Below, piece by piece: positions 11,224 to 47,898 of a DNA stretch of 64,000 nucleotides (the first letter of the stretch is position 1; each line of letters starts with the position of its first letter). Location: positions 16,111 to 80,110 of the forward strand of contig JBDRMK010000011.1 in assembly GCA_043812155.1 (NCBI GenBank). The letters run 5' to 3'. A program made the translations under genes and the position numbers. A model generated the notes under the pieces. It ran no database searches. It was not told the origin of the DNA and was given only the letters and a program-made list of their open reading frames with translations. The stretch comes from Patescibacteria group bacterium. Lineage in GTDB: Bacteria > Patescibacteriota > Patescibacteriia > JAXHNJ01.

Positions 11224-11275
11224 AGGGATTGCCGTGTTTATTAAAGTGGGGAAGAAGCTGGGAGCGATTAAGTAG
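11224..11275 (+). pseudogene. relic duplicate of the kbl 3' end (encodes ..[15 protein letters not shown] versus kbl ..[15 protein letters not shown])
   Basis: ~75% nt identity to 10686-10735, differences mostly synonymous. Confidence 0.5.
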
Positions 11276-11282
11276 ATTAAAT

Positions 11283-11450
11283 CCTAAATCCGAAATCCGA
11301 ATTTCTAAACAAATAATAAATTCCAAATCCTAAATCATAAACTGGTTTGGGGAATTGGAATTTTGAGCTTCTCCTTCAGAGGCGGATCCGCCTTGGGCGG
11401 AGAATTAGTTTAGGATTTAGATATTTGTGCTTCGAATTTAAAAGCCGTTC
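11283..11450 (+). repeat. AT-rich low-complexity element with GC-rich palindromic core CAGAGGCGGATCCGCCTTGGGCGGAGAA (family also at 36700-36890)
   Basis: 34-nt identical core in both copies; flanking AAATCCTAAAT / ATTTAGGATTT inverted words. Confidence 0.45.
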
Positions 11451-11705
11451 GGCAAAACCCGGGCGGTTTTGGGCAAAAGAAAAAAGGGAGAGTTTTAAGT
11501 CCTCTCCCTAGCGCGACAGAATACTTTCCAGGCCGAGCAGATATATTATTTATGTCAACGCGTTAAAAAATTTAGTAGTTTACTTTAAGTGTTAAGCATG
11601 TGTTGGAGGTCTCCGCCTACGCTCTTCATTTTATTCAGAGCTTCGGCGGACAGGCGGGGGAAAATTTAGCAGATAAAATAAGTTTTCAGAAAAACGCGGG
11701 GGTCC

Positions 11706-11782
11706 GGGGGTTTTGCTTCGAGCTTCCGTAAGGGCCTTAAGTATTTACTATAGACTTCCTTGGGCGAGTCAAAACCCCCGGA
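11706..11782 (+). repeat. 12-bp perfect inverted repeat CCGGGGGTTTTG ... CAAAACCCCCGG enclosing ~53 nt; adjacent hairpin CAACTTTTGgttaCAAAAGTTG
   Basis: seen in sequence. Confidence 0.4.
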
Positions 11783-11867
11783 ACTTTTGCAACTTTTGGT
11801 TACAAAAGTTGAAATACATCGGTACAGACAAAAAATAGAGTAGGGGATAATCAAAAAAGACTGTCTA

Positions 11868-11910
11868 CCCTTCGAGGCTCCGGCTTCGCCTCCGCACCTC
11901 AGGGTGACAG
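11868..11910 (+). repeat. hairpin repeat family (inverted copy at 40637-40670)
   Basis: reverse complement matches TGTCACCCTGAGGTGCG...GCCTCGAAGGGT. Confidence 0.4.
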
Positions 11911-12043
11911 TTAGGTAAAAATCGAGTTTTGAGTTTAAATATTTGAACTTTGAATTTGTTTTGGATTTAGGATTTAGTGCTTTGGATTTTCTGATAACAA
12001 AAGATCCCCTTTATTTAGGGAATCTCTTTGTCTATATATAAAA

Positions 12044-31648: not shown

Positions 31649-32695
31649 ATGCTAGATTCAAATTTTAACATCATAAAAATTTTCGTCCTGACCACGGTAT
31701 CTTTTGTCGTCACTGTTCTTTGGACGCCTCTTCTGACTCATTACCTTTATAAATACAAACTGGGCAAGCAAATCAGAAATGAAGAGGGGACGCCCATTTA
31801 TGCCAAGATTCACGCCGCTAAATCAGGCACTCCTACTATGGGCGGTTTGCTTATCTGGCTGACCACTTTGTTCTTAATTTTCTTTTTTTGGTTTCTTTCA
31901 CGAATCACGAATATTGAATTTATTGATAAACTGAATTTTCTTTCCCGGCCGCAGACTTTTTTGCCGCTAGTTTCGTTGGTCGCGGCCGCCTTTATCGGTT
32001 TGATTGACGATATTATTGATGTGAAAAGCAAAAATGGCCGGGGCGGCATGCGGGTCAGGGAAAGATTGGTTATTTTTACGATAATTGCCGCGGTCGGCGC
32101 GCTTTGGTTTTATTTTAAATTGGATTGGACGACGATCCATATTCCCTTTGTCGGCAATTTTGATATCGGCGCCTGGTATATTCCGATCTTTATTTTTATT
32201 ATCGTTTCCACCGCTTTTTCCGTGAATGAAGCGGACGGCCTGGATGGCTTGGCGGGCGGCATATTATTAGCCTCTTTTGTCGCTTTTGGCGCCATTGCCT
32301 TGTCTCAAGGCCGGGTTGAACTGGCCTCTTTTTGCGGGGTGATCGCTGGCGCTTTGTTTGCTTTTTTATGGTTTAATATCCCGCCGGCCAGATTTTTCAT
32401 GGGTGATACCGGATCCATGTCTTTAGGCGTTACTTTGGGAATTGTGGCGATGCTGACCAATACGGCTTTGCTCTTGCCGATTATTTCTTTTTTACTGGTC
32501 GTGGAATCTTTATCCGTGATCTTACAGATTTTGTCCAAAAAAATCCGAAAGAAGAAAATTTTTCTTTCCGCCCCCATCCATCATCATCTTGAAGCGATCG
32601 GCTGGCCGGAAGGCAAGATCGTGATGCGGTTCTGGATTATTTCCGCGGTTACGGCCGTGATAGGAATTGTATTATATTTAGTGGATAAGGCTTAG
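31649..32695 (+). CDS. mraY: phospho-N-acetylmuramoyl-pentapeptide transferase
   Basis: ..HAAKSGTPTMGG.., ..NEADGLDGLAGG.., ..FMGDTGSMSLG.. Confidence 0.9.
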   Translation: MLDSNFNIIKIFVLTTVSFVVTVLWTPLLTHYLYKYKLGKQIRNEEGTPIYAKIHAAKSGTPTMGGLLIWLTTLFLIFFFWFLSRITNIEFIDKLNFLSRPQTFLPLVSLVAAAFIGLIDDIIDVKSKNGRGGMRVRERLVIFTIIAAVGALWFYFKLDWTTIHIPFVGNFDIGAWYIPIFIFIIVSTAFSVNEADGLDGLAGGILLASFVAFGAIALSQGRVELASFCGVIAGALFAFLWFNIPPARFFMGDTGSMSLGVTLGIVAMLTNTALLLPIISFLLVVESLSVILQILSKKIRKKKIFLSAPIHHHLEAIGWPEGKIVMRFWIISAVTAVIGIVLYLVDKA

Positions 32696-33037: not shown

Positions 33038-33093
33038 AATGAGCGAACCTTGGAAAGGTCCGCTCGGGAAAGATCGAAAACGATAGGTAGGCG

Positions 33094-33384
33094 CTATCTC
33101 AGGAAGATGACGCGATACAGGTACCCATCCGGTGGCTTCTGGTGAAGCGTGAAATAAACGGCTTTTACCGTGTCTTTCAGCTCCGAGGGGATGTGCCGTT
33201 TGATTTCGGCCATCGTCAAGTTGCGCGGTACGGTAATATTGATAGTTCTCAGCGCTGTCAGATCGTATCTGGCAGCCGGCTTTTTCGGTTTACCCGTGGC
33301 GCCTACTTCAAACCAGTAGCCGTCGGAGTTTTCCGAAACCGGTCCTTGCCTGCCTATAAGAAAAGGGGCGACTCTGATCAGCAT
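33094..33384 (-). CDS. hypothetical protein in GC-rich island 1 (strong SD GAGGAG 5 nt upstream)
   Basis: 96-aa ORF, local GC ~50% vs ~40% background, canonical SD unlike native genes. Confidence 0.4.
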   Translation of the reverse strand: MLIRVAPFLIGRQGPVSENSDGYWFEVGATGKPKKPAARYDLTALRTINITVPRNLTMAEIKRHIPSELKDTVKAVYFTLHQKPPDGYLYRVIFLR

Positions 33385-33540
33385 AGCTACTCCTCTCTGT
33401 TTGAGAAACTAATACCTATCTCACGCTTGCCAAATTCTTGATTTATTATATTATCACTTATTATTGATTTGTCAACACCGTTAAAAATTATATATATATT
33501 AACAACAAAAATGTTTATGCAAGCCTTATTTTTATTGCGG

Positions 33541-33620: not shown

Positions 33621-34052
33621 ATGAAGATAATATTTGTCATTGCCTTGAGCGTTCTTTTCGTGTTTGCGATGGCCGTTCCGGTTTTGGCGCAGGATATCAA
33701 TTCTCCTGATGTTCGTCAGGCGATTATAAAGCGTCTTTTGAATGACGGTTTTTATCTGGGGAATCCGGGTTTTTCCGACGGTTTGCGGTATATCGAATAT
33801 TTGCCGGATAATCGAATGATTATCTGGGGGTTAGGTGATTTTCGTTACAGCGCGGATAAATCAATTCTTCCTTTGGATGAGCTCACTCCGACCTTTATTG
33901 ATTTATCAGACCCGGCCCTGCGCGTGACCGTGGGCAATGACAACCGTTATCTCGGCCAGCTGATGGATTCTTGCCTGGCCACCGGATATTCGGAAAAATA
34001 CCTGAAAGGTGACACTTTTTGGCAACTTGAAGGCCAGCGCAAAAAGCCGTAA
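33621..34052 (+). CDS. secreted hypothetical protein (signal peptide MKIIFVIALSVLFVFAMAVPVLAQD) in GC-rich island 1
   Basis: SD AGGAGG 8 nt upstream, signal peptide, elevated GC. Confidence 0.5.
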   Translation: MKIIFVIALSVLFVFAMAVPVLAQDINSPDVRQAIIKRLLNDGFYLGNPGFSDGLRYIEYLPDNRMIIWGLGDFRYSADKSILPLDELTPTFIDLSDPALRVTVGNDNRYLGQLMDSCLATGYSEKYLKGDTFWQLEGQRKKP

Positions 34053-36899: not shown

Positions 36900-37982
36900 A
36901 TGAGCAACAAATTAAAAATAGTCCTAACAGGCGGCGGCACGGCCGGTTCGGTCATGCCTCTCCTTGCTATCTATGAGGGTTTTAAAAACAGAAATATCCC
37001 GGCGGAGTTTTTATTCGTGGGAACGGAAAAGGGAATGGAAAAAGAATTAGTGAAGACTTATGACATTAATTTTAAAAGTATTTCCGCCGGCAAGCTAAGG
37101 CGGTATTTATCTTTGAAAAATATAACGGATGCCTTAAAAGTAGCGGAAGGTTTTTTTGCCGCCAGGAACATATTAAAACAATTTAAGCCGCAGGCGGTCG
37201 TTTCCGCCGGCGGCTTCGTGGCCGTGCCGGTGATCTGGGCCGCCTATTCCTTAAAGATACCTTGCCTTATCCATCAGCAGGATTTTGAAAAAGGTTTGGC
37301 CAATAAATTGACCCAAAAACCGGCGACTAAGATTACCGTCACTTTTGAAAAATCTTTGCTGGAATTCCCTCGAAAGAAAGTTGTCTTAATCGGTAATCCA
37401 GTTCGACCGGAAATTTTAAGAGGTATCAAGGAAAAGGCTATTAAAATTTTCAGTCTGAAAAAAAATCTGCCTACCCTTTTAATTTTAGGCGGCGGCACCG
37501 GCGCTTTAAAAATCAATCAAGAAATAAATAAAATATTAATTGATTTAGTCGGTTTTTGCCAGATTATCCATTTAACCGGTCAAGGAAAGGGAGTGACGGA
37601 CTTTGAGCATGAAAATTATCATCCTTACGAATTACTGACCGATAAAATGAAGGAAGCATTAGCCGTCGCCGATCTGGTCATTTCCCGGGCCGGGCTTTCC
37701 ACCTTGACGGAATTAGCCGCGTTAGCCAAGCCGGCGATTATTATTCCTATTTTTAAATCGCACCAGGAAAAAAATGCCGCCTATTTTGAAAAAGAACACG
37801 CTGTTTTAGTCATCCGCGAGAATATTCTGCATCACGAGCTTTTATTAACGACTATCAAAGGATTATTATCAAATCCAAATAAATTAAATGAATTGGGGCA
37901 GAATATTAAGAAATTAGACCGGCCTGAAGCTTTGGATAAAATTATTGAAATAATATTAGAAATAAAAAAGCCACCATTTTAG
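36900..37982 (+). CDS. murG: undecaprenyldiphospho-muramoylpentapeptide beta-N-acetylglucosaminyltransferase
   Basis: ..KIVLTGGGTAGSVMP.. GT28 N-terminus, C-terminal ..GGGTGAL.. Confidence 0.85.
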   Translation: MSNKLKIVLTGGGTAGSVMPLLAIYEGFKNRNIPAEFLFVGTEKGMEKELVKTYDINFKSISAGKLRRYLSLKNITDALKVAEGFFAARNILKQFKPQAVVSAGGFVAVPVIWAAYSLKIPCLIHQQDFEKGLANKLTQKPATKITVTFEKSLLEFPRKKVVLIGNPVRPEILRGIKEKAIKIFSLKKNLPTLLILGGGTGALKINQEINKILIDLVGFCQIIHLTGQGKGVTDFEHENYHPYELLTDKMKEALAVADLVISRAGLSTLTELAALAKPAIIIPIFKSHQEKNAAYFEKEHAVLVIRENILHHELLLTTIKGLLSNPNKLNELGQNIKKLDRPEALDKIIEIILEIKKPPF

Positions 37983-37992
37983 GGGTGGCTAT
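37964..37992 (-). terminator. hairpin GCCACC..GGTGGC with U-run on minus strand, downstream of 38008-38343 gene
   Basis: seen in sequence. Confidence 0.4.
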
Positions 37993-38007
37993 GGCTTGTT
38001 TTGGTTC

Positions 38008-38343
38008 TTAGGCCAAAAATATCACCCAGGGAACGAGTAGTCCCAGAAGAAAACAGGTAACAAATCTTGGCCATGATCTTGAAATGGCGGAGAAAAAATG
38101 TTCCTGCAGCAGGTAGTAAATAACCAGAGCCGCGCATAGGGAAAAAGTTGGCAATAATGCCACGCTCAGGTTATCATTGGAAAATGCCTCCAGGAGTGGC
38201 TTATAAAGAAAGCGACGCATAATGATTATGCTTATGGCCGTTCCCGCTATGATCATAAGCCAATGGCAAGAAAGTCTGTACACTATGTTTTCCCCGACAT
38301 AGATAACAACTAAAAGCAGAAATATGGGGATAACGATTGGCAT
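38008..38343 (-). CDS. hypothetical small membrane protein
   Basis: 111 aa, 3 hydrophobic helices. Confidence 0.35.
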   Translation of the reverse strand: MPIVIPIFLLLVVIYVGENIVYRLSCHWLMIIAGTAISIIIMRRFLYKPLLEAFSNDNLSVALLPTFSLCAALVIYYLLQEHFFSAISRSWPRFVTCFLLGLLVPWVIFLA

Positions 38344-38423
38344 AATTCTCTTCCTCCCTTGCTTATGGTGTAAAAGATCAAATATTTAATTAACAGCTTA
38401 ATATAGTATTATATATAAGTCAA

Positions 38424-39912: not shown

Positions 39913-40647
39913 ATGACGAATAAAAGAAAAATATATATCGGCACTTCCGGCTGGCAGTATAAACACTGGTACGAGGTTTTTTATCCGGAAGACGTTAAGT
40001 CTGATGGCTTGCTCCAATATTACAGCCAGCATTTTAAGAGCGTGGAATTAAACGCTTCTTTTTATCATTTGCCGAAACCGGAAGTTTTTCAAGGCTGGTA
40101 CAAAAAAACTCCGAATGACTTTCTTTTTAGCGTCAAAGCCAGTCGTTATATCACCCATATTAAAAAATTAAGAGACTTTGAAGAGGGCGGGACGCGATTT
40201 ATTGAGGCCGCCAAGGAATTAAAAGAAAAGCTGGGCCCTATCCTTTTCCAATTGCCGCCTTTTTTAAAAGCGAATAAAGAAGTTCTAGAAACGGCTATAA
40301 AAATATTGCCAAAAGATTATAAATACGCTTTTGAATTCCGGCATGGAAGCTGGTTTACACCGGAGATTTATGATATTCTGAAAAAGCATAATGTCGCTTT
40401 AGTGATGGCGGATTCCCCAAATTTTCCTTTGAAAAAAGAAATCACCGCCGACTTTATTTATCTTCGCTTTCATGGTTCAAAAAGTCTGTACGGTTCAAAA
40501 TATACGGAAGAAGAATTAAACTCCTGGGCCAAAGACATTATGGCTTGGCAAAAGCAGGGGATGGATATATACGCTTATTTCAACAATGACGCGGAAGGGT
40601 ATGCGGTGGAAAACGCAAAGCAGTTAGAAAATTTATTGTCACCCTGA
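39913..40647 (+). CDS. DUF72 (YecE/UPF0759) family protein
   Basis: ..IYIGTSGWQYKHWYEVFYP.. family signature. Confidence 0.75.
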   Translation: MTNKRKIYIGTSGWQYKHWYEVFYPEDVKSDGLLQYYSQHFKSVELNASFYHLPKPEVFQGWYKKTPNDFLFSVKASRYITHIKKLRDFEEGGTRFIEAAKELKEKLGPILFQLPPFLKANKEVLETAIKILPKDYKYAFEFRHGSWFTPEIYDILKKHNVALVMADSPNFPLKKEITADFIYLRFHGSKSLYGSKYTEEELNSWAKDIMAWQKQGMDIYAYFNNDAEGYAVENAKQLENLLSP

Positions 40648-40670
40648 GGTGCGCAGCCTCGAAGGGTGAC
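40637..40670 (+). repeat. palindromic repeat TGTCACCCTGAGGTGCGCAGCCTCGAAGGGTGAC overlapping DUF72 stop codon
   Basis: stem GTCACCCT/AGGGTGAC; inverted copy at 11868-11910. Confidence 0.45.
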
Positions 40671-40813
40671 CTATTAAGAAAATTACTGCTATACTTCGAG
40701 GTCATTCGCTGCCGCTCATGACACCTCATTATGACAGTTTGCGGGGAAGGGCGGTGGAAAATGCACGGAAGATGATTGAGATATTGAGCTATTAAAATAT
40801 TAAATTTTTATTC

Positions 40814-40842
40814 TTGACGACTAAATACATATCCATTAAGAT
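40814..40842 (+). promoter_or_regulatory. sigma70-like promoter TTGACG-17-TAAGAT for island 2
   Basis: seen in sequence. Confidence 0.4.
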
Positions 40843-40889
40843 AACGGAATAATCAGAATTTTGCACCTTATCAACGCGGGAGGAAAATC

Positions 40890-41135
40890 ATGGCTATTGA
40901 GGATGTTAAATGGGCGATATGGATGGCTGCTGCAATGGCGAGAGGCAAAGAATATAATGGCAAATTCCATCCTCCTTGGCAGGTAACGCCTCGTCATATG
41001 CAGTTGGGTTGTGATTACGATTTTGCTGCCCTTCTCAGCGCTCAGGGTTATAAGGAATTGAAGGCTTTCAAGGCACGCGTGGCCAAAATAAAAGAAAGAC
41101 ACGTGCGGGAAAGGTTGACCGAAAGCGGCAAATAG
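40890..41135 (+). CDS. hypothetical small protein, island 2 gene 1 (SD GGAGG)
   Basis: 81 aa; strong SD; GC ~50%. Confidence 0.4.
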   Translation: MAIEDVKWAIWMAAAMARGKEYNGKFHPPWQVTPRHMQLGCDYDFAALLSAQGYKELKAFKARVAKIKERHVRERLTESGK

Positions 41136-41150
41136 CTCTGGAGGTCGGAG

Positions 41151-41336
41151 ATGTCCAAATTCGTCTGGTCGGCACCCGAGAACACATTTTTTGACCATTT
41201 TGATGAAAATGGTAACCGTCTATTTTCCGAATCACGAATTTTCGGCCGACAGGACAGACGGATTTCAGCCGGTGAATGGAGAAAATTTCTCAAAAGGCTT
41301 CAAACCCTGAAAGCGAGAATAGCCAAGAGGCGTTAA
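41151..41336 (+). CDS. hypothetical small protein, island 2 gene 2 (SD GGAGG)
   Basis: 61 aa; strong SD. Confidence 0.35.
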   Translation: MSKFVWSAPENTFFDHFDENGNRLFSESRIFGRQDRRISAGEWRKFLKRLQTLKARIAKRR

Positions 41337-41368
41337 AATCTGTATTCATTCAACAGTAGGAGGGAACT

Positions 41369-41548
41369 ATGCCCATTATTGAAACGTCATCAGGCGAAAA
41401 ATTGATTGTCTTCCAAGGCGAGTCGCGGAGAACAGAACTTATTTGCGACGAGGCATTACAGGATGCTTTGCGCGGCGAACATGGCGATTACGCTCCTTTC
41501 AAAGAATTCCTGCGAAGAATGCGGAGGTTAAGACTGTCTCAGACTTGA
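41369..41548 (+). CDS. hypothetical small protein, island 2 gene 3 (SD AGGAGG); below ORF-track length cutoff
   Basis: 59 aa MPIIETSSGEKLIVFQGESRR..; strong SD; followed by terminator. Confidence 0.35.
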   Translation: MPIIETSSGEKLIVFQGESRRTELICDEALQDALRGEHGDYAPFKEFLRRMRRLRLSQT

Positions 41549-41586
41549 GATGGCCGAAAAACCAGATTGTTCATCATTCGTTAATC

Positions 41587-41610
41587 GAGCGCTTCGGCGC
41601 TCTTTTTTTA
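41587..41610 (+). terminator. rho-independent terminator GAGCGCttcgGCGCTCTTTTTTT
   Basis: 6-bp GC stem, tetraloop, T8. Confidence 0.7.
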
Positions 41611-41628
41611 TTCCAAAATTTTGTTATA

Positions 41629-42507
41629 ATGATTTTAATGAGCAATATATCAAATGTACAACAAAACATTCCTCTTGCCCCTTACACTACCTTTAAAATC
41701 GGCGGGCCGGCGAAGTTTTTTGCGGTAGTTAAAAATGAAGGGGAAATAATTGAAAGCTTGAAATGGACTAAAGAAAACAAGCAGCCATATTTTATTCTCG
41801 GACACGGAGCCAATATTTTGGTAAGCGATAAGGGGTTTGACGGATTGGTGATTAAAAATGAGATGAGGAGATTAGAGATTAGGGATGAGGAGGTGACAGC
41901 TGACTCCGGCGTAGTGCTTTCAGAGTTGATTGGAAAATGCGCGAGTATGGGTTTGAGCGGCCTGGAATTTTTGGCCGGCGTGCCTTCCACTCTCGGCGGC
42001 GCGATTTTTGGAAACGCGGGGGCGCCGGAAAAAGCGATTGGTAATTTTGTGGTGAGCGCAAGAATTTTGGATAAAGGGTTTAAAGTAAAAGTGCTTAGCA
42101 AGAGTGAATGCGGATTTGGCTATCGCCAGAGTGTTTTTCAAAGTAACGAACTTATTGTTTTGTCGGCCGCTTTAAAAATGGAAAAAGGCAACACCGAAAA
42201 AATCATAGAAAGCATAAAAAATTTGATGCTTAAGAAAAAGGAAACGCAGGACTTGGAGAATCCTTCCGCCGGCTGCGTGTTTAAAAATGCCGATGGATAT
42301 TCCGCCGGCCAGCTGATTGATGAGCTGGGCCTTAAGGGTAAAAAGATCGGGCAGGCGCAAGTTTCGGAGAAGCACGCCAATTACATTATCAATTTAGGCG
42401 GAGCCACCGCAGACCACGTGGTCCAGCTGATAAGTTTTATTAAACAGCAAGTGCGGGATAAAAAAGGCGTGCAACTCCAGGAAGAAATAAAATACATCGG
42501 ATTTTAA
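41629..42507 (+). CDS. murB: UDP-N-acetylenolpyruvoylglucosamine reductase; ORF-track start 41443 rejected (runs through terminator)
   Basis: ..LAPYTTFKIGGPAKFF.. FAD-binding N-terminus; TATAAT at 41625-41630 immediately upstream. Confidence 0.85.
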   Translation: MILMSNISNVQQNIPLAPYTTFKIGGPAKFFAVVKNEGEIIESLKWTKENKQPYFILGHGANILVSDKGFDGLVIKNEMRRLEIRDEEVTADSGVVLSELIGKCASMGLSGLEFLAGVPSTLGGAIFGNAGAPEKAIGNFVVSARILDKGFKVKVLSKSECGFGYRQSVFQSNELIVLSAALKMEKGNTEKIIESIKNLMLKKKETQDLENPSAGCVFKNADGYSAGQLIDELGLKGKKIGQAQVSEKHANYIINLGGATADHVVQLISFIKQQVRDKKGVQLQEEIKYIGF

Positions 42508-42534
42508 AAGTCGAGACACTTCGGTGCGATTCAG

Positions 42535-42573
42535 TGTCAACCCTTCGGCGCGGCTCAGGGTTGACATTTTTTT
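42535..42573 (+). terminator. rho-independent terminator TGTCAACCCttcggcgcggctcAGGGTTGACATTTTTTT
   Basis: 9-bp stem plus T7. Confidence 0.65.
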
Positions 42574-42825
42574 ATAATTGATTTTTTTACTAAAATAAGC
42601 TAAAATAAAAAAGAACTGATTGAAATAAATAGTTGAAACTTATTAGAAATTTTTTTTAAAAAAGTTTTATTATTTCATTTTTTTGGCTCTACGTACTGAA
42701 AAATATAAAATTACATAAATAATAAAAAAAATTATTTAAATTCTAAAAATAATATTTAAAACAATAAAATTGAAATATTTTTGCCAAAATAAGTTATCCA
42801 CAGGATAAATCGAGGAATTAATAAT

Positions 42826-44430: not shown

Positions 44431-44444
44431 TTAATATACTATTT

Positions 44445-45581
44445 ATGGTTAATGCCGAAAAAAAGAAAATATTAGGCGGCAAGCACGAGGCCAGAAACGG
44501 TTTTGCCGACGGTTTTATGCCTTTGGAATCCCTGGATCTCTCAAAAATAAAGGACGCGGACGAAATGCTGCAGGCAATGAGCAAGACTTCTTTTGCCGGC
44601 CGGGGCTTGGGCGAAGCGGCTGATGTTTTATATGAAATGATCACCGATCCCGATTGTTTCGTGGTGGCCACTTTTTCCGGGGCGATGACGGTGGCCAAAA
44701 TGAGTTTAGTGATCTGCGATATGATAGATTATGGTTTAATTAATGCAGTGGTTTCCACCGGTGCCTTGATGGCCCATGGTTTGGTGGAAACGACCGGCCA
44801 GACCCATTTTAAGTATAATTTTGAGTATAACGATGATGACCTGGGTTTTGCCGGTTATGACCGCGTATATGACACCCTGGAATTGGAAACGAATCTGGAT
44901 AATCTGGAAAATATTGTCCGCCAGGTTTTTACAAGTCTGTCCCCGGAAGAAAAAGTCAGCAGCCGCGTATTAAACGAAAAACTTGGTGAATATCTGATTA
45001 AGAAATCCAAGCAGCGGGGAATCGTTAAATCTGCCCGTGAGAAAAATGTTCCGATCTATATCCCGGCTTTTTCTGATTCTGAGTTGGGTCTTGATTTTGC
45101 CTTGTTCAACCGCCGGCAGAAAATTGACGGCAAAAAAACCTTGACCTTTGATCCTTTTCTTGATCTGGAACATTTCGCGGAAACGATCTTAAAACAGAAA
45201 AAAATCGGCATCTTTACCATCGGCGGCGGCGTGCCGCGCAATTGGGCCCAGCAAGTCGCCCCTTATCTTGATCTGATCCGTTACCGTATCGTCACGAATT
45301 CCGACCCGAAAAGATATTATGCTGATAAAAAAGACCCGTACATCAAAGAATACACTTACGGAGTAAGGATCTGCCCGGAGCCGGTTAATTGGGGCGGACT
45401 TTCCGGCTGCACTTATTCCGAAGGGGTTTCCTGGGGAAAATTCAAGGACCCGCGCAAAGGCGGGAAATTCGCCGAAGTCTTATGCGATGCCACCGCCGTC
45501 TGGCCTCTACTTGTAAAAGGAACTTTGGAAAGATTGAAAAAGAATAAGATAAAGATCAGCAAAAAAATTGAATACGCCTAA
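44445..45581 (+). CDS. deoxyhypusine synthase-like / homospermidine synthase-like enzyme
   Basis: ..VSTGALMAHG.., ..GGGVPRNW.., and ..VSWGKF.. containing the DHS catalytic Lys motif SWGK. Confidence 0.6.
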   Translation: MVNAEKKKILGGKHEARNGFADGFMPLESLDLSKIKDADEMLQAMSKTSFAGRGLGEAADVLYEMITDPDCFVVATFSGAMTVAKMSLVICDMIDYGLINAVVSTGALMAHGLVETTGQTHFKYNFEYNDDDLGFAGYDRVYDTLELETNLDNLENIVRQVFTSLSPEEKVSSRVLNEKLGEYLIKKSKQRGIVKSAREKNVPIYIPAFSDSELGLDFALFNRRQKIDGKKTLTFDPFLDLEHFAETILKQKKIGIFTIGGGVPRNWAQQVAPYLDLIRYRIVTNSDPKRYYADKKDPYIKEYTYGVRICPEPVNWGGLSGCTYSEGVSWGKFKDPRKGGKFAEVLCDATAVWPLLVKGTLERLKKNKIKISKKIEYA

Positions 45582-46470
45582 AATATTTATGAAAAAACTA
45601 TACGAATTATATCCTTATAACTTCGGCCAGGTTTATGGCCAAAGTTTGGAAAAAGCAAAAATTTGCGTTATTCCGGTTCCTTATGAAGCCACGCTTTCTT
45701 ACCAGGCCGGCGCCGGAAGGGGTCCGGCTGCCATTATTGAAGCTTCGCGCCATCTTGATGAAATGTGGGATTCTTTGAAAGAAGGGGAGCTTTCTGGTTT
45801 TAAAACTTCGGATGTTTATACTTTTGATGAGGTTATTTTATCAAAAAATTCCGTCATAGAGGCTTTAAAATGTTTGGAGCAGTTTATCAGCGAAGAAGTG
45901 GTAAAGAAAGAAAAATTTCCCTTAGTATTAGGCGGCGAGCATTCACTGACTTTTCCGGCCGTTAAAGCGTTAAAAAGAAAATACAAAGATCTGTCCGTTC
46001 TTCATTTTGACGCGCATACTGATCTGCTTAACAGCTTTGAAGATTCAAAGTATAATCACGCCTGCGTTATGCGGAGAATTCATGAGTTAAATATAAAAAC
46101 CGTGTCCATCGGGATTCGCAATATAAATTACGCGGTCACAGATTATCTTAAAAAGAGGAGGTCAAAGAACGTATATTATATGCCGGAAATTCCCGGCTTA
46201 GAAAAGATATTAAAGGCATTGTCAAAAAACGTTTATCTCACTTTTGATCTTGACGCTTTTGATCCATCCATCATGCCTTCGGTCGGCACGCCGGAACCGG
46301 GCGGTCTTTTCTGGTGGCCGACCATTGAATTGCTGAATAAAATCATCCCAAAAGTGAATCTAGTCGGCGCGGACGTCATGGAATTAAAACCGATTCCGGG
46401 CCTGGAAGCCCCGAATTTTCTGGCCGCCAAACTCGTCTATCATATCATTAGAGCCAAATTAACTTCGTAA
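45568..46470 (+). CDS. speB: agmatinase (ureohydrolase family)
   Basis: ..LHFDAHTDL.., ..SVGTPEPGGL.. arginase-family Mn-binding motifs. Confidence 0.8.
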   Translation: MNTPKIFMKKLYELYPYNFGQVYGQSLEKAKICVIPVPYEATLSYQAGAGRGPAAIIEASRHLDEMWDSLKEGELSGFKTSDVYTFDEVILSKNSVIEALKCLEQFISEEVVKKEKFPLVLGGEHSLTFPAVKALKRKYKDLSVLHFDAHTDLLNSFEDSKYNHACVMRRIHELNIKTVSIGIRNINYAVTDYLKKRRSKNVYYMPEIPGLEKILKALSKNVYLTFDLDAFDPSIMPSVGTPEPGGLFWWPTIELLNKIIPKVNLVGADVMELKPIPGLEAPNFLAAKLVYHIIRAKLTS

Positions 46471-46850
46471 TGCTAACATTAAAAGAAAAAAAGAAAATAA
46501 AAGAATTTCACGGTCATATCGGGCCGTGGGTGGTCACTGGTTTTACTTTAGGAAAGCTGGCCAAAAAATATATAAAAGGCTTGAAAACAATAAATATCTT
46601 AAATCCTTTGTTTCCGCCGAAATCATGTTTGATTGATGGCTTACAGCTTTCTTCGGGACTGACCATCGGCCGCGGCGAAGTCAGATTAAAAAAAAGCCCT
46701 CAGTTAGTTATTACTTTTATTGGTCAGATTGACGAGATAAAAATCGTATTAAAAAGTGAAATGGTAAGAATAATTCAGGGTTTCGAGCATAATAATCTTA
46801 AAAAACTCTCATATTATATCGGCAACACTTATATAAAATTTTTTGAGTGA
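46470..46850 (+). CDS. FmdE/FwdE-family domain protein
   Basis: ..EFHGHIGPWVVTGFTLGK.. resembles FmdE N-terminal HGH motif; TAATG coupling to speB. Confidence 0.4.
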   Translation: MLTLKEKKKIKEFHGHIGPWVVTGFTLGKLAKKYIKGLKTINILNPLFPPKSCLIDGLQLSSGLTIGRGEVRLKKSPQLVITFIGQIDEIKIVLKSEMVRIIQGFEHNNLKKLSYYIGNTYIKFFE

Positions 46851-46877
46851 TAGATTTACTAATTAACGATTATAAAT

Positions 46878-47414
46878 ATGCATATGAACGAACAAACAAA
46901 TATATTAGAAAGAGCAATCATAAAAGTAACTGTTTTAAAGCAAATCATGTTCATCGTGATTTTTACCGCCTTAAGCGTCGCTCTGCCCTGGTTTTGCCAC
47001 CAGTTTAATTTGGCCGGTCCGATTTTTTTACCGATGCACTTTTTTGTTCTGATGGCCGGTCTGCTTTTCGGCTGGCGAGTGGGCCTTATCACGGGTTTGC
47101 TGACCCCCCTGGCAAGTTATGCCTTTTCCGGTATGCCGATTGTCGCAATTTTACCCGTTATCATTCTGGAAGTGATGGCCTACGGTTTTTTCGCCGGATG
47201 GTTGCGGGAAAAAAAAATGGATCTATGGCTGACCTTAATTCTGGCCTTGGTATTCGGAAAAACAGTTTTGTTTTTCAGCGCCTGGATATTTATGCCGGTA
47301 AACCCAGCGAATTACCTTTTTACCGCCGTAAAAACCGGCTTGCCGGGAATTCTCATTCAATTGGCCTTGCTGCCTTTCTTGGTTAAAACCGTGCAAAAAT
47401 ATTTCGCCAAATAA
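46878..47414 (+). CDS. hypothetical polytopic membrane protein (possible transporter substrate-binding component)
   Basis: 5 TM helices, 178 aa. Confidence 0.3.
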   Translation: MHMNEQTNILERAIIKVTVLKQIMFIVIFTALSVALPWFCHQFNLAGPIFLPMHFFVLMAGLLFGWRVGLITGLLTPLASYAFSGMPIVAILPVIILEVMAYGFFAGWLREKKMDLWLTLILALVFGKTVLFFSAWIFMPVNPANYLFTAVKTGLPGILIQLALLPFLVKTVQKYFAK

Positions 47415-47475
47415 GTATAAGGAAGGGGGGCCAGCTAAACTGGCCTCTTTTCTTATTTTTTGCTACAATAAGCCC

Positions 47476-47898
47476 ATGAAAATCGTAATTAAAGAGAAGT
47501 TTACAGATTTGCTATTTTTAAAATTTATTTCCTTAAAAGATACTTTTTGGGTGATTCATCGTAATAAGAGCATTTATCGGTCAAAAAAAAGGGGAATCGC
47601 GGGATTAGTAATTTTATTAAAACAAAAGAAGAGTATAAAAAGAAAAATAGTTTTTGACAAAGTCGTCGGCCGGGCAGCCGCTTTGCTCCTTGTTTACGCC
47701 GGCGTTTCCGAAGTTCACACTGGACTGATAAGCGAAGAAGCCGTAAAAGTTTTTAAGAAATATAAAATATACCATCAATACGGCAAATTGATAAAAAGAG
47801 TACTTAATCGGGATAAATCGGATGTCTGCCCCTTTGAGAAGATAGCGCAAGGGAAAACTCCGGCCCAGTTTTATAAAATAGTTAAAAACAAATTCTAA
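47476..47898 (+). CDS. hypothetical protein
   Basis: 140 aa, basic; no confident motif. Confidence 0.3.

What the first reader, a model, noticed from the sequence alone, without database searches (positions are those of the whole stretch)
40814..41612. Second GC-rich, SD-bearing cassette of three tiny genes between the DUF72 gene and murB
Three consecutive small ORFs sit on the plus strand: 81 aa, 61 aa, and a 59-aa ORF at 41369-41548 that is missing from the ORF track. Each has a textbook SD (GGAGG/AGGAGG). They are driven by a TTGACG-17-TAAGAT promoter and closed by a strong terminator (GAGCGCttcgGCGCTC-T8). GC is ~50% versus ~40% background. The signature is the same as island 1, so the same foreign source or mechanism may have delivered both. 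The proteins have no recognisable motifs, so toxin-antitoxin, phage-derived or anti-defence functions are all possible.
Basis: seen in the sequence. Interest (0 to 1): 0.6.

Follow-up and report, generated by a model that had tools for sequence, protein, structure and literature searches.

The report
Orphan small-gene operon splitting DUF72–murB
A roughly 1-kb, self-contained operon of tiny genes has been inserted between two formerly overlapping cell-wall-cluster genes of a Patescibacteria (CPR) bacterium; two of its three genes are real and conserved in one sister lineage, but they match nothing known, so this is a lineage-restricted orphan whose function is still unknown.

Summary
The GC contrast is overstated: 45.1% against a 41.2% window mean, about +1 SD.

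The closest genome (L001) has the DUF72 stop overlapping the murB start (TCATGA). Window 40648-41637 is therefore a ~990-bp lineage-specific insertion.

One 1127-bp metagenome contig (L072) carries the same insertion at the same site. It has homologues of ORF1 (65% aa identity) and ORF3 (59%) but no ORF2. dN/dS is 0.16 for the ORF1 core and 0.40 for ORF3. The annotated plus frames give the lowest values of all six frames, and the minus-strand ORFs are not preserved. ORF1 and ORF3 are real genes; ORF2 is unsettled.

Three segments are far more conserved than neutral sequence (52%):
- the first 69 nt after DUF72, 96% identical, holding two hairpins;
- the terminator;
- a TGtTATAAT box 7 nt before the murB ATG, probably a replacement leaderless promoter.

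No family, fold, phage, plasmid or defence match was found; only these two occurrences exist among about 15 billion proteins. Core genes here lack SD sites, while all the small inserted ORFs have them. Function remains inferred: possibly small nucleic-acid-binding regulators. Interest is modest.

The parts
40638..40670 (+). Hairpin 1 (GTCACCCTGAGG-loop-CCTCGAAGGGTGAC). Its 5' arm supplies the last codons and the TGA stop of DUF72, and it marks the left edge of the insertion.
   Evidence: 13-bp stem in the MFE fold. Identical in L072 except for one loop base. A second copy lies at 11863-11908 (-) followed by a T-run.
40648..40775 (+). Conserved non-coding block. The first 69 nt are 95.7% identical to L072 and the whole block is 91%.
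   Evidence: Segment identities, compared with 52% in the neutral-like stretch 41531-41586 and pS of 0.46-0.57 in the genes. No Rfam match.
40687..40738 (+). Hairpin 2, a long imperfect stem (CUGCUAUACUUCGAGGUCAU / AUGACACCUCAUUAUGACAG). It could be an RNA structure or a palindromic operator.
   Evidence: Folds in both sequences. Both L072 substitutions inside it (40690 T>C, 40729 T>G) strengthen pairing. Inverted repeats I1 and I10.
40717..40794 (+). Candidate 25-aa ORF (MTPHYDSLRGRAVENARKMIEILSY). It is open with the same start and stop in L072. It has no SD, and its ATG sits inside hairpin 2. Status uncertain.
   Evidence: Six-frame comparison; 19 of 25 residues are identical.
40666..40695 (+). 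Promoter-like site A (GTGACC-18-TATACT, with TG before the -10), inside the conserved block.
   Evidence: In L072 the -10 becomes CATACT.
40814..40842 (+).
   Evidence: 76% identical in L072, with both hexamers weakened.
40879..40883 (+). SD of ORF1 (GGAGG, 6 nt before the ATG).
   Evidence: The stretch ATCAACGCGGGAGGAAA is identical in L072.
40890..41135 (+). ORF1, 81 aa, pI 9.7. NCBI hypothetical protein MFH1366729.1 (ABIH38_01925). The core (residues 30-80) is conserved; the N-terminus is variable.
   Evidence: 65% identity to P0002. Core dN/dS 0.155. Codon-usage score 0.175.
41140..41144 (+). SD of ORF2 (GGAGG, 6 nt before the ATG).
41151..41336 (+). ORF2, 61 aa, pI 11.4. Specific to this lineage, not annotated by NCBI, and of uncertain coding status.
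   Evidence: Absent from L072 as a clean 200-bp indel. Not in the 15-billion-protein collection. Codon score -0.125. Chance-ORF p = 0.0065 and C-terminal similarity to ORF1 p = 0.0075.
41358..41363 (+). SD of ORF3 (AGGAGG, 5 nt before the ATG).
   Evidence: The GGAGG core is kept in L072 although the spacer around it is only 66% identical.
41369..41548 (+). ORF3, 59 aa, pI 6.6. NCBI hypothetical protein MFH1366730.1 (ABIH38_01930). Contains the conserved motif LRGEHGDYAPF.
   Evidence: 59% identity to P0003. dN/dS 0.40. AF2 predicts three strands then two helices, pLDDT 62.
41587..41609 (+). Intrinsic terminator (GAGCGC-UUCG-GCGCUC plus T7).
   Evidence: Identical in L072, while the 56 nt before it are only 52% identical.
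41622..41630 (+). Extended -10 box TGtTATAAT, 7 nt before the murB ATG at 41638. Inferred to be a replacement, leaderless promoter for murB.
   Evidence: Sequence. The segment 41587-41637 is 96% identical in L072. Nothing equivalent exists in L001, where murB overlaps DUF72.

Best explanation
Window 40648-41637 is a ~990-bp insertion specific to one Patescibacteria sub-lineage. It split an ancestral, translationally coupled DUF72-murB gene pair inside the cell-wall (dcw/mur) cluster.

It is a self-contained expression unit:
- a strongly conserved 5' non-coding region with two hairpins and promoter-like boxes;
- two conserved small protein genes, ORF1 (basic) and ORF3 (about neutral);
- in this genome only, a third ORF (ORF2) between them;
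- a strong Shine-Dalgarno site before each ORF, in a genome whose core genes lack them;
- an intrinsic terminator.

Because the terminator would cut murB off from upstream transcription, the conserved TGtTATAAT box 7 nt before the murB ATG most likely restores murB expression as a leaderless transcript.

Shown: the insertion, its conservation at the same site in a second lineage, protein-level selection on ORF1 and ORF3, conservation of the terminator and the -10 box, and orphan status.

Inferred: (1) the insertion predates the window/L072 split, because dS in the ORFs equals dS in DUF72; (2) ORF1 and ORF3 are small soluble proteins that dimerise and bind nucleic acid, each with a strand-helix-helix-like core and a basic amphipathic C-terminal helix, and act as regulators, perhaps on the conserved palindromic 5' region. 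I put step (2) at only about 0.25. No other specific function scores higher.
For: - Insertion: in L001 (MurB 74%, DUF72 78%, MurC 76% identical) the DUF72 stop overlaps the murB ATG.
- Second occurrence: L072 has the order DUF72 3' end, conserved intergenic region, ORF1 homologue, ORF3 homologue, same terminator, same -10 box.
- Coding: dN/dS is 0.155 (ORF1 core) and 0.40 (ORF3), against 0.078 for DUF72, with similar dS (1.08, 0.71, 0.88). The annotated frames are the lowest of six.
- Constraint on non-coding parts: 96% identity at 40648-40716 and at 41587-41637, against 52% at 41531-41586.
- SD contrast: 0 of 52 long ORFs have GGAGG upstream, and core-gene upstream regions are A/T-rich.
- Orphan status: an exhaustive phmmer search of 1.84 billion representatives finds only self plus P0002 and P0003. 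Profile searches add nothing.
- Protein features: pI 9.7, 11.4 and 6.6, with C-terminal 25-mers charged +4 to +9. AF2 gives ORF3 as strands followed by two helices and ORF1 as helical.
Against: - Only two sequences support every comparative claim.
- With a single outgroup that has DUF72, insertion versus deletion in L001 is formally one event each.
- Neither candidate promoter is above chance or well conserved, so the unit could be read through from DUF72.
- AF2 confidence is low (pLDDT 53 and 62), and no RHH or other DNA-binding family is detected.
- ORF3 dN/dS of 0.40 is relaxed.
- ORF2 has non-native codon usage and no homologue.
- The leaderless murB promoter is inferred from sequence only.
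Confidence: 0.6

Rival explanations
1. A small toxin-antitoxin or addiction pair: ORF3 as an RHH-like antitoxin and ORF1 as a basic toxin. It would stabilise itself at this locus.
For: Two adjacent small genes are conserved as a pair. One is basic and one near neutral. ORF3 has a strand-helix-helix-like prediction. A conserved palindrome upstream could be an operator.
Against: No toxin or antitoxin family in Pfam, NCBIfam or PADLOC. The proteins (54-81 aa) are smaller than typical type II toxins. The genes are separated by 34 nt or more, each with its own SD. TA systems are usually widespread and patchy, but this pair occurs twice among about 15 billion proteins and only at one chromosomal site.
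Confidence: 0.1
2. A remnant of a phage, plasmid or other mobile element (a moron or anti-defence genes) that kept its own expression signals.
For: It is an insertion with canonical promoter, SD and terminator signals, unlike the host's SD-less genes. Two further self-contained small-gene insertions lie in the same cluster.
Against: No PHROG hit below E = 0.06. No blastn or tblastn hit in 50,697 phage or 72,556 plasmid records. Nothing in IMG/VR. No integrase, transposase, terminal repeats or target duplication. dS equals that of the host gene, so it has been inherited vertically for a long time.
Confidence: 0.12
3. Small accessory proteins of cell-wall synthesis or cell division, recruited into the dcw cluster.
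For: The location is between DUF72 and murB, within mraY-murD-ftsW-murG-murC-murB. The site is retained in two lineages.
Against: The murC-murB junction is a generally variable spot that holds unrelated genes in other Patescibacteria. The unit is transcriptionally insulated from murB by a terminator. It has no similarity to any division protein and no membrane segment conserved in both copies.
Confidence: 0.12
4. The ORFs, or at least ORF2, are not functional genes, and the conserved thing is the non-coding RNA or DNA structure at the 5' end.
For: The 5' block is the most conserved part (96%). For ORF2: it is absent from L072, not annotated by NCBI, has a codon score of -0.125 (below the 1st percentile of real gene segments), and has no homologue.
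Against: For ORF1 and ORF3: dN/dS is well below 1 in the annotated frame only, and the SD cores are conserved. For ORF2: a perfect GGAGG 6 nt before the ATG, and a chance-ORF probability of 0.0065. Folding z-scores of the 5' block are unremarkable (-1.5 and -1.7), and there is no Rfam hit.
Confidence: 0.35

Closest known systems
Lineage-restricted orphan (ORFan) small-protein genes of Patescibacteria/CPR genomes, annotated 'hypothetical protein'
   Same: Short proteins with no family assignment, confined to one narrow clade, and annotated as hypothetical by NCBI (ABIH38_01925 and ABIH38_01930).
   Different: Here the genes form a defined, insulated operon whose insertion point, age (dS) and selective constraint can be shown. 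They also carry SD sites that the host's core genes lack.
Type II toxin-antitoxin operons with ribbon-helix-helix (CopG/Arc/MetJ-type) antitoxins
   Same: A pair of small genes. ORF3 has a predicted strand-helix-helix segment (residues 22-57), and there is a conserved palindrome upstream.
   Different: No RHH or toxin profile hit. Both proteins are very small. The genes are not overlapping. The pair is not mobile or widespread (two occurrences in total).
Phage morons: self-contained promoter-gene-terminator units inserted between conserved genes
   Same: An autonomous transcription unit (promoter-like site, SD sites, strong terminator) dropped between two genes that are contiguous in a relative.
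   Different: The host context is a chromosome's dcw cluster, not a prophage, and there is no phage similarity of any kind.
Integron gene cassettes
   Same: Small ORFs in tandem, with one unit (ORF2) present or absent as a clean module.
   Different: No attC-like imperfect inverted repeat at the ORF ends and no intI nearby. The unit has its own promoter-like sites and terminator, which integron cassettes normally lack.

Membership tests
Type II toxin-antitoxin system | Recognisable toxin and/or antitoxin domain | tested here: not met
   Pfam, NCBIfam and PADLOC scans of ORF1-3 and of P0002 and P0003 gave no TA family at E <= 1.
Type II toxin-antitoxin system | Two adjacent co-transcribed small genes conserved as a pair | tested here: met
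   ORF1 and ORF3 homologues are adjacent on L072.
Type II toxin-antitoxin system | Toxicity of one partner neutralised by the other | not testable with these tools
   Needs expression experiments.
Ribbon-helix-helix DNA-binding proteins | Sequence match to an RHH profile | tested here: not met
   No RHH family in Pfam at E <= 1. No PDB sequence hit at E <= 10.
Ribbon-helix-helix DNA-binding proteins | N-terminal strand followed by two helices, forming a dimer | tested here: inconclusive
   The AF2 monomer of ORF3 gives E22-26, H28-35, H42-57, but pLDDT is 62. Foldseek found no significant match. The dimer was not modelled.
Phage-derived gene (moron or anti-defence) | Homologues in phage genomes or phage protein families | tested here: not met
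   PHROGs best E = 0.066. Phage blastn and tblastn found nothing. IMG/VR scans found nothing. BFVD Foldseek best E = 0.34.
Phage-derived gene (moron or anti-defence) | Prophage or mobile-element context (integrase, att sites, neighbouring phage genes) | tested here: not met
   The neighbours are murC, DUF72, murB and a decarboxylase. No terminal repeats or target duplication.
Known anti-phage defence system | Match to a PADLOC model | tested here: not met
   No hit at E <= 1.
Integron gene cassette | attC recombination site after each ORF and an integron integrase nearby | tested here: not met
   The inverted-repeat scan shows no attC-like structure at the ORF ends. There is no integrase ORF in the flanks.
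Known structured RNA (riboswitch, leader or sRNA) for the conserved 5' block | Match to an Rfam covariance model | tested here: not met
   No hit at E <= 1 in 40000-42200 and none at gathering score in the whole window.

The most novel reading that the evidence does not exclude
The cassette is one of at least three self-contained, SD-bearing small-gene units (33.1 kb, 38.0 kb, 40.6 kb) that interrupt the dcw cluster of this lineage but not of its nearest relative. They could reflect an undescribed route by which SD-poor CPR genomes gain small genes. One possibility is a hairpin-ended micro-cassette: the left-end hairpin recurs at 11.9 kb. Another is gene birth around canonical signals. In that reading ORF1 and ORF3 would be a new family of small DNA- or RNA-binding proteins acting on the ultra-conserved two-hairpin 5' element and so gating expression around murB.
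Probability: 0.1. Interest if true: 0.65.

Novelty: new member of a known kind. Interest (0 to 1): 0.3.

Why it matters
The value is mainly for annotation and evolution. The locus gives a clean, datable case of an orphan small-protein operon entering an essential, tightly coupled gene pair in a reduced CPR genome, with apparent compensation: a terminator followed by a new leaderless murB promoter. It also shows SD-led genes coexisting with SD-less core genes, which bears on how translation starts in Patescibacteria. It defines two tiny new protein families and a 69-nt non-coding element that is 96% conserved, all of which could be tested experimentally. It does not reveal a new mechanism or settle an open question.

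Tried and rejected
- Concatenated 201-aa query in the word-indexed protein search: found nothing, not even itself. The exhaustive search later showed that self and two relatives do exist, so that negative was a limit of the tool.
- The look-up of encoding contigs on window proteins: not on record.
- Two metagenome scans and two viral scans with peptide patterns, plus one viral scan with a 35-nt pattern from the conserved intergenic region: nothing.
- Phage and plasmid blastn and tblastn: nothing.
- Pfam, PHROGs, NCBIfam and PADLOC: only noise. An EF-hand-like match in ORF2 (E = 0.017, below the cut-off) fails the canonical loop positions on inspection.
- PDB sequence profiles and Foldseek against PDB and BFVD on low-confidence AF2 models: no hit at E <= 0.001.
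- Paralogy among the three ORFs: hhalign probabilities are 3% or less. Smith-Waterman shuffle p-values are 0.0075 (ORF1 vs ORF2, C-termini), 0.05 and 0.07. This is suggestive only.
- Minus-strand ORFs as the real genes: rejected.
- ORF1-TAG-ORF2 as one split or read-through gene (they share a frame): rejected, because the ORF1 homologue in L072 ends at the same place.
- UGA recoding: rejected, because DUF72 ends at TGA in L001 too.
- IS200/IS605-like element with matching end hairpins: rejected, because the left hairpin and the terminator hairpin are unrelated.
- nhmmer of the intergenic region against 72 loci and the window: only the hairpin copy at 11.9 kb.

Full report
**Observation.**
- Three plus-strand ORFs lie at 40890-41135 (81 aa), 41151-41336 (61 aa) and 41369-41548 (59 aa).
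- Each is preceded by GGAGG or AGGAGG, 5-6 nt from an ATG.
- A TTGACG-17-TAAGAT match lies at 40814-40842. A 6-bp GC-rich hairpin with a UUCG loop and a T-run lies at 41587-41609.
- Pfam confirms DUF72 (39913-40647, E = 1e-76) upstream and MurB downstream. The real murB start is the ATG at 41638.
- The compositional claim is overstated. The interval is 45.1% GC against a window mean of 41.2% (sd 3.7%). 14% of equal-sized windows are as GC-rich or richer, and the neighbours murB and murC are 43-44%.
- The promoter match scores 9 of 12, and such matches are no more frequent here than in shuffled sequence.

**Organism and insertion.** A MurB-guided scan of species-representative genomes places the window in Patescibacteria. 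The best hit is a 'Patescibacteria group bacterium' MAG (L001, MurB 74% identical). The next are Jacksonbacteria, Kerfeldbacteria and Komeilibacteria at 46-50%.
- The window is collinear with L001 across mraY-murD-ftsW-murG-murC-DUF72-murB.
- In L001 the DUF72 stop and the murB start overlap (TCATGA). The 990 bp at window 40648-41637 therefore have no counterpart there.
- In more distant relatives murC abuts murB directly or is separated from it by unrelated genes, so this junction is generally variable.
- The last DUF72 codons in the window (TCA CCC TGA) belong to a hairpin that recurs elsewhere in the genome. This and the exact ATGA overlap in L001 favour insertion here over deletion in L001. 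With one informative outgroup this is still an inference.

**Relatives.**
- A concatenated query in the word-indexed protein search found nothing.
- An exhaustive phmmer search against 1.84 billion representatives found three proteins: ORF1 itself; P0002, 66% identical to ORF1 residues 21-80; and P0003, 58% identical to ORF3.
- ORF1 and ORF3 are NCBI hypothetical proteins MFH1366729.1 and MFH1366730.1, with consecutive locus tags ABIH38_01925 and ABIH38_01930. ORF2 was not annotated and is not in the collection.
- P0002 and P0003 lie together on one 1127-bp JGI contig, L072.
- L072 aligns end to end with the window: DUF72 3' end, intergenic region, ORF1 homologue, ORF3 homologue, the same terminator, and the same sequence up to the murB ATG.
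- ORF2 is missing from L072 as a clean 200-bp gap.
- Profile searches with the two-sequence alignments added no members. The family is known from exactly two places.

**Are they genes?** I compared the window with L072.

| Region | dN/dS | dS |
|---|---|---|
| DUF72 | 0.078 | 0.88 |
| ORF1 core | 0.155 | 1.08 |
| ORF3 | 0.40 | 0.71 |

- The annotated frame gives the lowest ratio of the six frames in both ORFs. The other frames range from 0.24 to 2.2, and the lowest of them is the antisense frame that shares wobble positions.
They also score like non-coding sequence on codon usage.
- ORF1 and ORF3 are therefore protein-coding and under purifying selection. Their dS matches that of the host gene, which indicates vertical co-inheritance since the two lineages split.
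- ORF2 is unresolved. For it: a perfect SD, and a chance-ORF probability of 0.0065. Against it: a codon score of -0.125 (real gene segments 0.27 +/- 0.12), absence from L072, and no homologue.
- The ORF2 C-terminus (KRLQTLKARIAK) resembles that of ORF1 (KELKAFKARVAK; shuffle p = 0.0075), so it may be a diverged partial duplicate. hhalign does not support paralogy among the three ORFs.

**Non-coding constraint.** Neutral-like sequence between the two copies is about 52% identical (41531-41586). Synonymous sites differ at 46-57%.

| Segment | Identity to L072 |
|---|---|
| 40648-40716 (first 69 nt after DUF72) | 95.7% |
| 40648-40775 (whole block) | 91% |
| 40843-40889 (5' UTR and SD) | 86% |
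| 41587-41637 (terminator to murB ATG) | 96% |

- The 5' block folds into two adjacent hairpins, at 40638-40670 and about 40687-40738. The only substitution in hairpin 1 is in its loop. The two substitutions in hairpin 2 (T>C at 40690, T>G at 40729) both improve pairing in L072.
- Folding z-scores are unremarkable (-1.5 and -1.7) and Rfam finds nothing.
- A 25-aa ORF (40717-40794) stays open with the same ends in both copies. Its ATG lies inside hairpin 2 and it has no SD, so I list it only as a candidate.
- Two promoter-like sites exist, at 40666-40695 inside the conserved block and at 40814-40842. Neither keeps its key positions in L072, so the true transcription start is unknown.
- Hairpin 1 has a second, longer copy at 11863-11908 on the minus strand, there followed by a T-run.

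**Consequence for murB.** The insertion ends with a terminator that is identical in both copies. Directly after it comes TGtTATAAT (41622-41630), 7 nt before the murB ATG, which has no SD.
- An extended -10 box at that distance predicts a leaderless or near-leaderless murB mRNA. This rests on established knowledge of bacterial extended -10 promoters and is inference here.
- Several first-in-operon genes in this window have a TATAAT-like box 4-7 nt before their ATG, for example mraY at 31649.
- The simplest reading is that murB was once translationally coupled to DUF72 and is now driven by its own promoter, kept under selection.

**Translation signals.**
- None of 52 ORFs of at least 150 aa has GGAGG upstream of its first start, and core-gene upstream regions are A/T-rich.
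- At real gene starts I found 5-mer SD cores only at 33621 and 42826, and at five small ORFs that lie in insertions relative to L001: 33094-33384(-), 38008-38343(-) and the three ORFs here.
- The SD cores of ORF1 and ORF3 are conserved in L072 while their surroundings drift, so they appear to be used.
- A published survey reports that the anti-SD motif is missing from about half of Parcubacteria 16S rRNAs (PMC9297842). The 16S rRNA of this organism is not in the window, so I could not check it.

**Function.**
- All family and structure searches were negative: Pfam, PHROGs, NCBIfam, PADLOC, PDB sequence profiles, and Foldseek against PDB and BFVD.
- AF2 models are of low confidence. ORF1 has pLDDT 53 and is all-helical, with a long C-terminal helix. 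ORF3 has pLDDT 62, with three short strands then two helices.
- The proteins are hydrophilic, and all three end in a strongly basic amphipathic helix. pI is 9.7, 11.4 and 6.6.
- The segment of ORF3 from residue 22 to 57 (strand, helix, helix) and the collinear part of ORF1 are compatible with a ribbon-helix-helix-like unit, but no profile supports that.
- My best functional guess is small dimeric nucleic-acid-binding regulators, possibly acting on the conserved palindromic 5' region. I give it about 0.25.
- The toxin-antitoxin, phage or mobile remnant, and cell-wall accessory readings each get about 0.1.

**Comparison with 'island 1'.**
It has TTGACA-16-TAATAT, a GAGGAG SD, a 96-aa ORF at 52% GC and a terminator.
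- A second unit at 37969-38423 (minus strand) encodes a 111-aa membrane ORF with a GGAGG SD and a terminator.
- Both are absent from L001. They share the self-contained architecture with the cassette but no sequence similarity with it.

**Verdict.** This is a real, lineage-restricted, insulated operon of orphan small proteins, inserted into a formerly coupled DUF72-murB pair. Two genes are validated by selection and one is doubtful. The 5' non-coding element is unusually conserved, and a compensatory murB promoter is likely. It is a well-documented example of a known phenomenon (orphan small-gene gain) rather than a new kind of system, and its function remains unknown.

Noticed in passing
window 33041-33475 (minus strand): A self-contained one-gene unit: TTGACA-16-TAATAT promoter with TG, GAGGAG SD, a 96-aa ORF (33094-33384, 52% GC, no Pfam or PHROG hit) and a terminator.
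   Followed up: partly
window 37969-38423 (minus strand): A 111-aa predicted membrane ORF (38008-38343) with a GGAGG SD and its own terminator, inserted between murG and murC relative to L001. No family hit.
   Followed up: partly
window 11230-12040: An 820-bp stretch without convincing ORFs but with several long GC-rich hairpins. One of them is a second copy of the cassette's left-end hairpin (11863-11908, minus strand, followed by a T-run). Rfam finds nothing significant, so these may be unannotated RNAs or terminators.
   Followed up: partly
whole window (gene starts): Core genes have A/T-rich upstream regions without Shine-Dalgarno motifs. Several first genes have a TATAAT-like box 4-7 nt before the ATG (for example 31649, 21943 on the minus strand, and 47476), which suggests widespread leaderless or SD-independent initiation.
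   Followed up: partly
window 41133-41153: ORF1 and ORF2 are in the same reading frame, separated only by TAG plus five codons. The ORF1 homologue in L072 stops at the same place, so this is not a split gene.
   Followed up: yes
window 42508-42825, and L001 10872-12935: A very AT-rich spacer (22-25% GC) follows murB. At this point L001 carries about 1.6 kb of extra sequence. A further block, window 44433-47886 vs L001 14407-15794, also differs in content.
   Followed up: no
L005 9033-9896; L006 9402-9998; L010 9411-10007; L015 9398-9994: In other Patescibacteria the murC-murB junction holds unrelated genes: a conserved 198-aa protein in three genomes and a 287-aa lipoprotein-like ORF on the opposite strand in one. 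This junction appears to be a recurrent insertion spot.
   Followed up: no
window 40890-40976 vs L072 635-670: The N-terminal ~30 residues of ORF1, including a hydrophobic WAIWMAAAMA stretch, are not conserved. The L072 homologue is 18 residues shorter there.
   Followed up: partly
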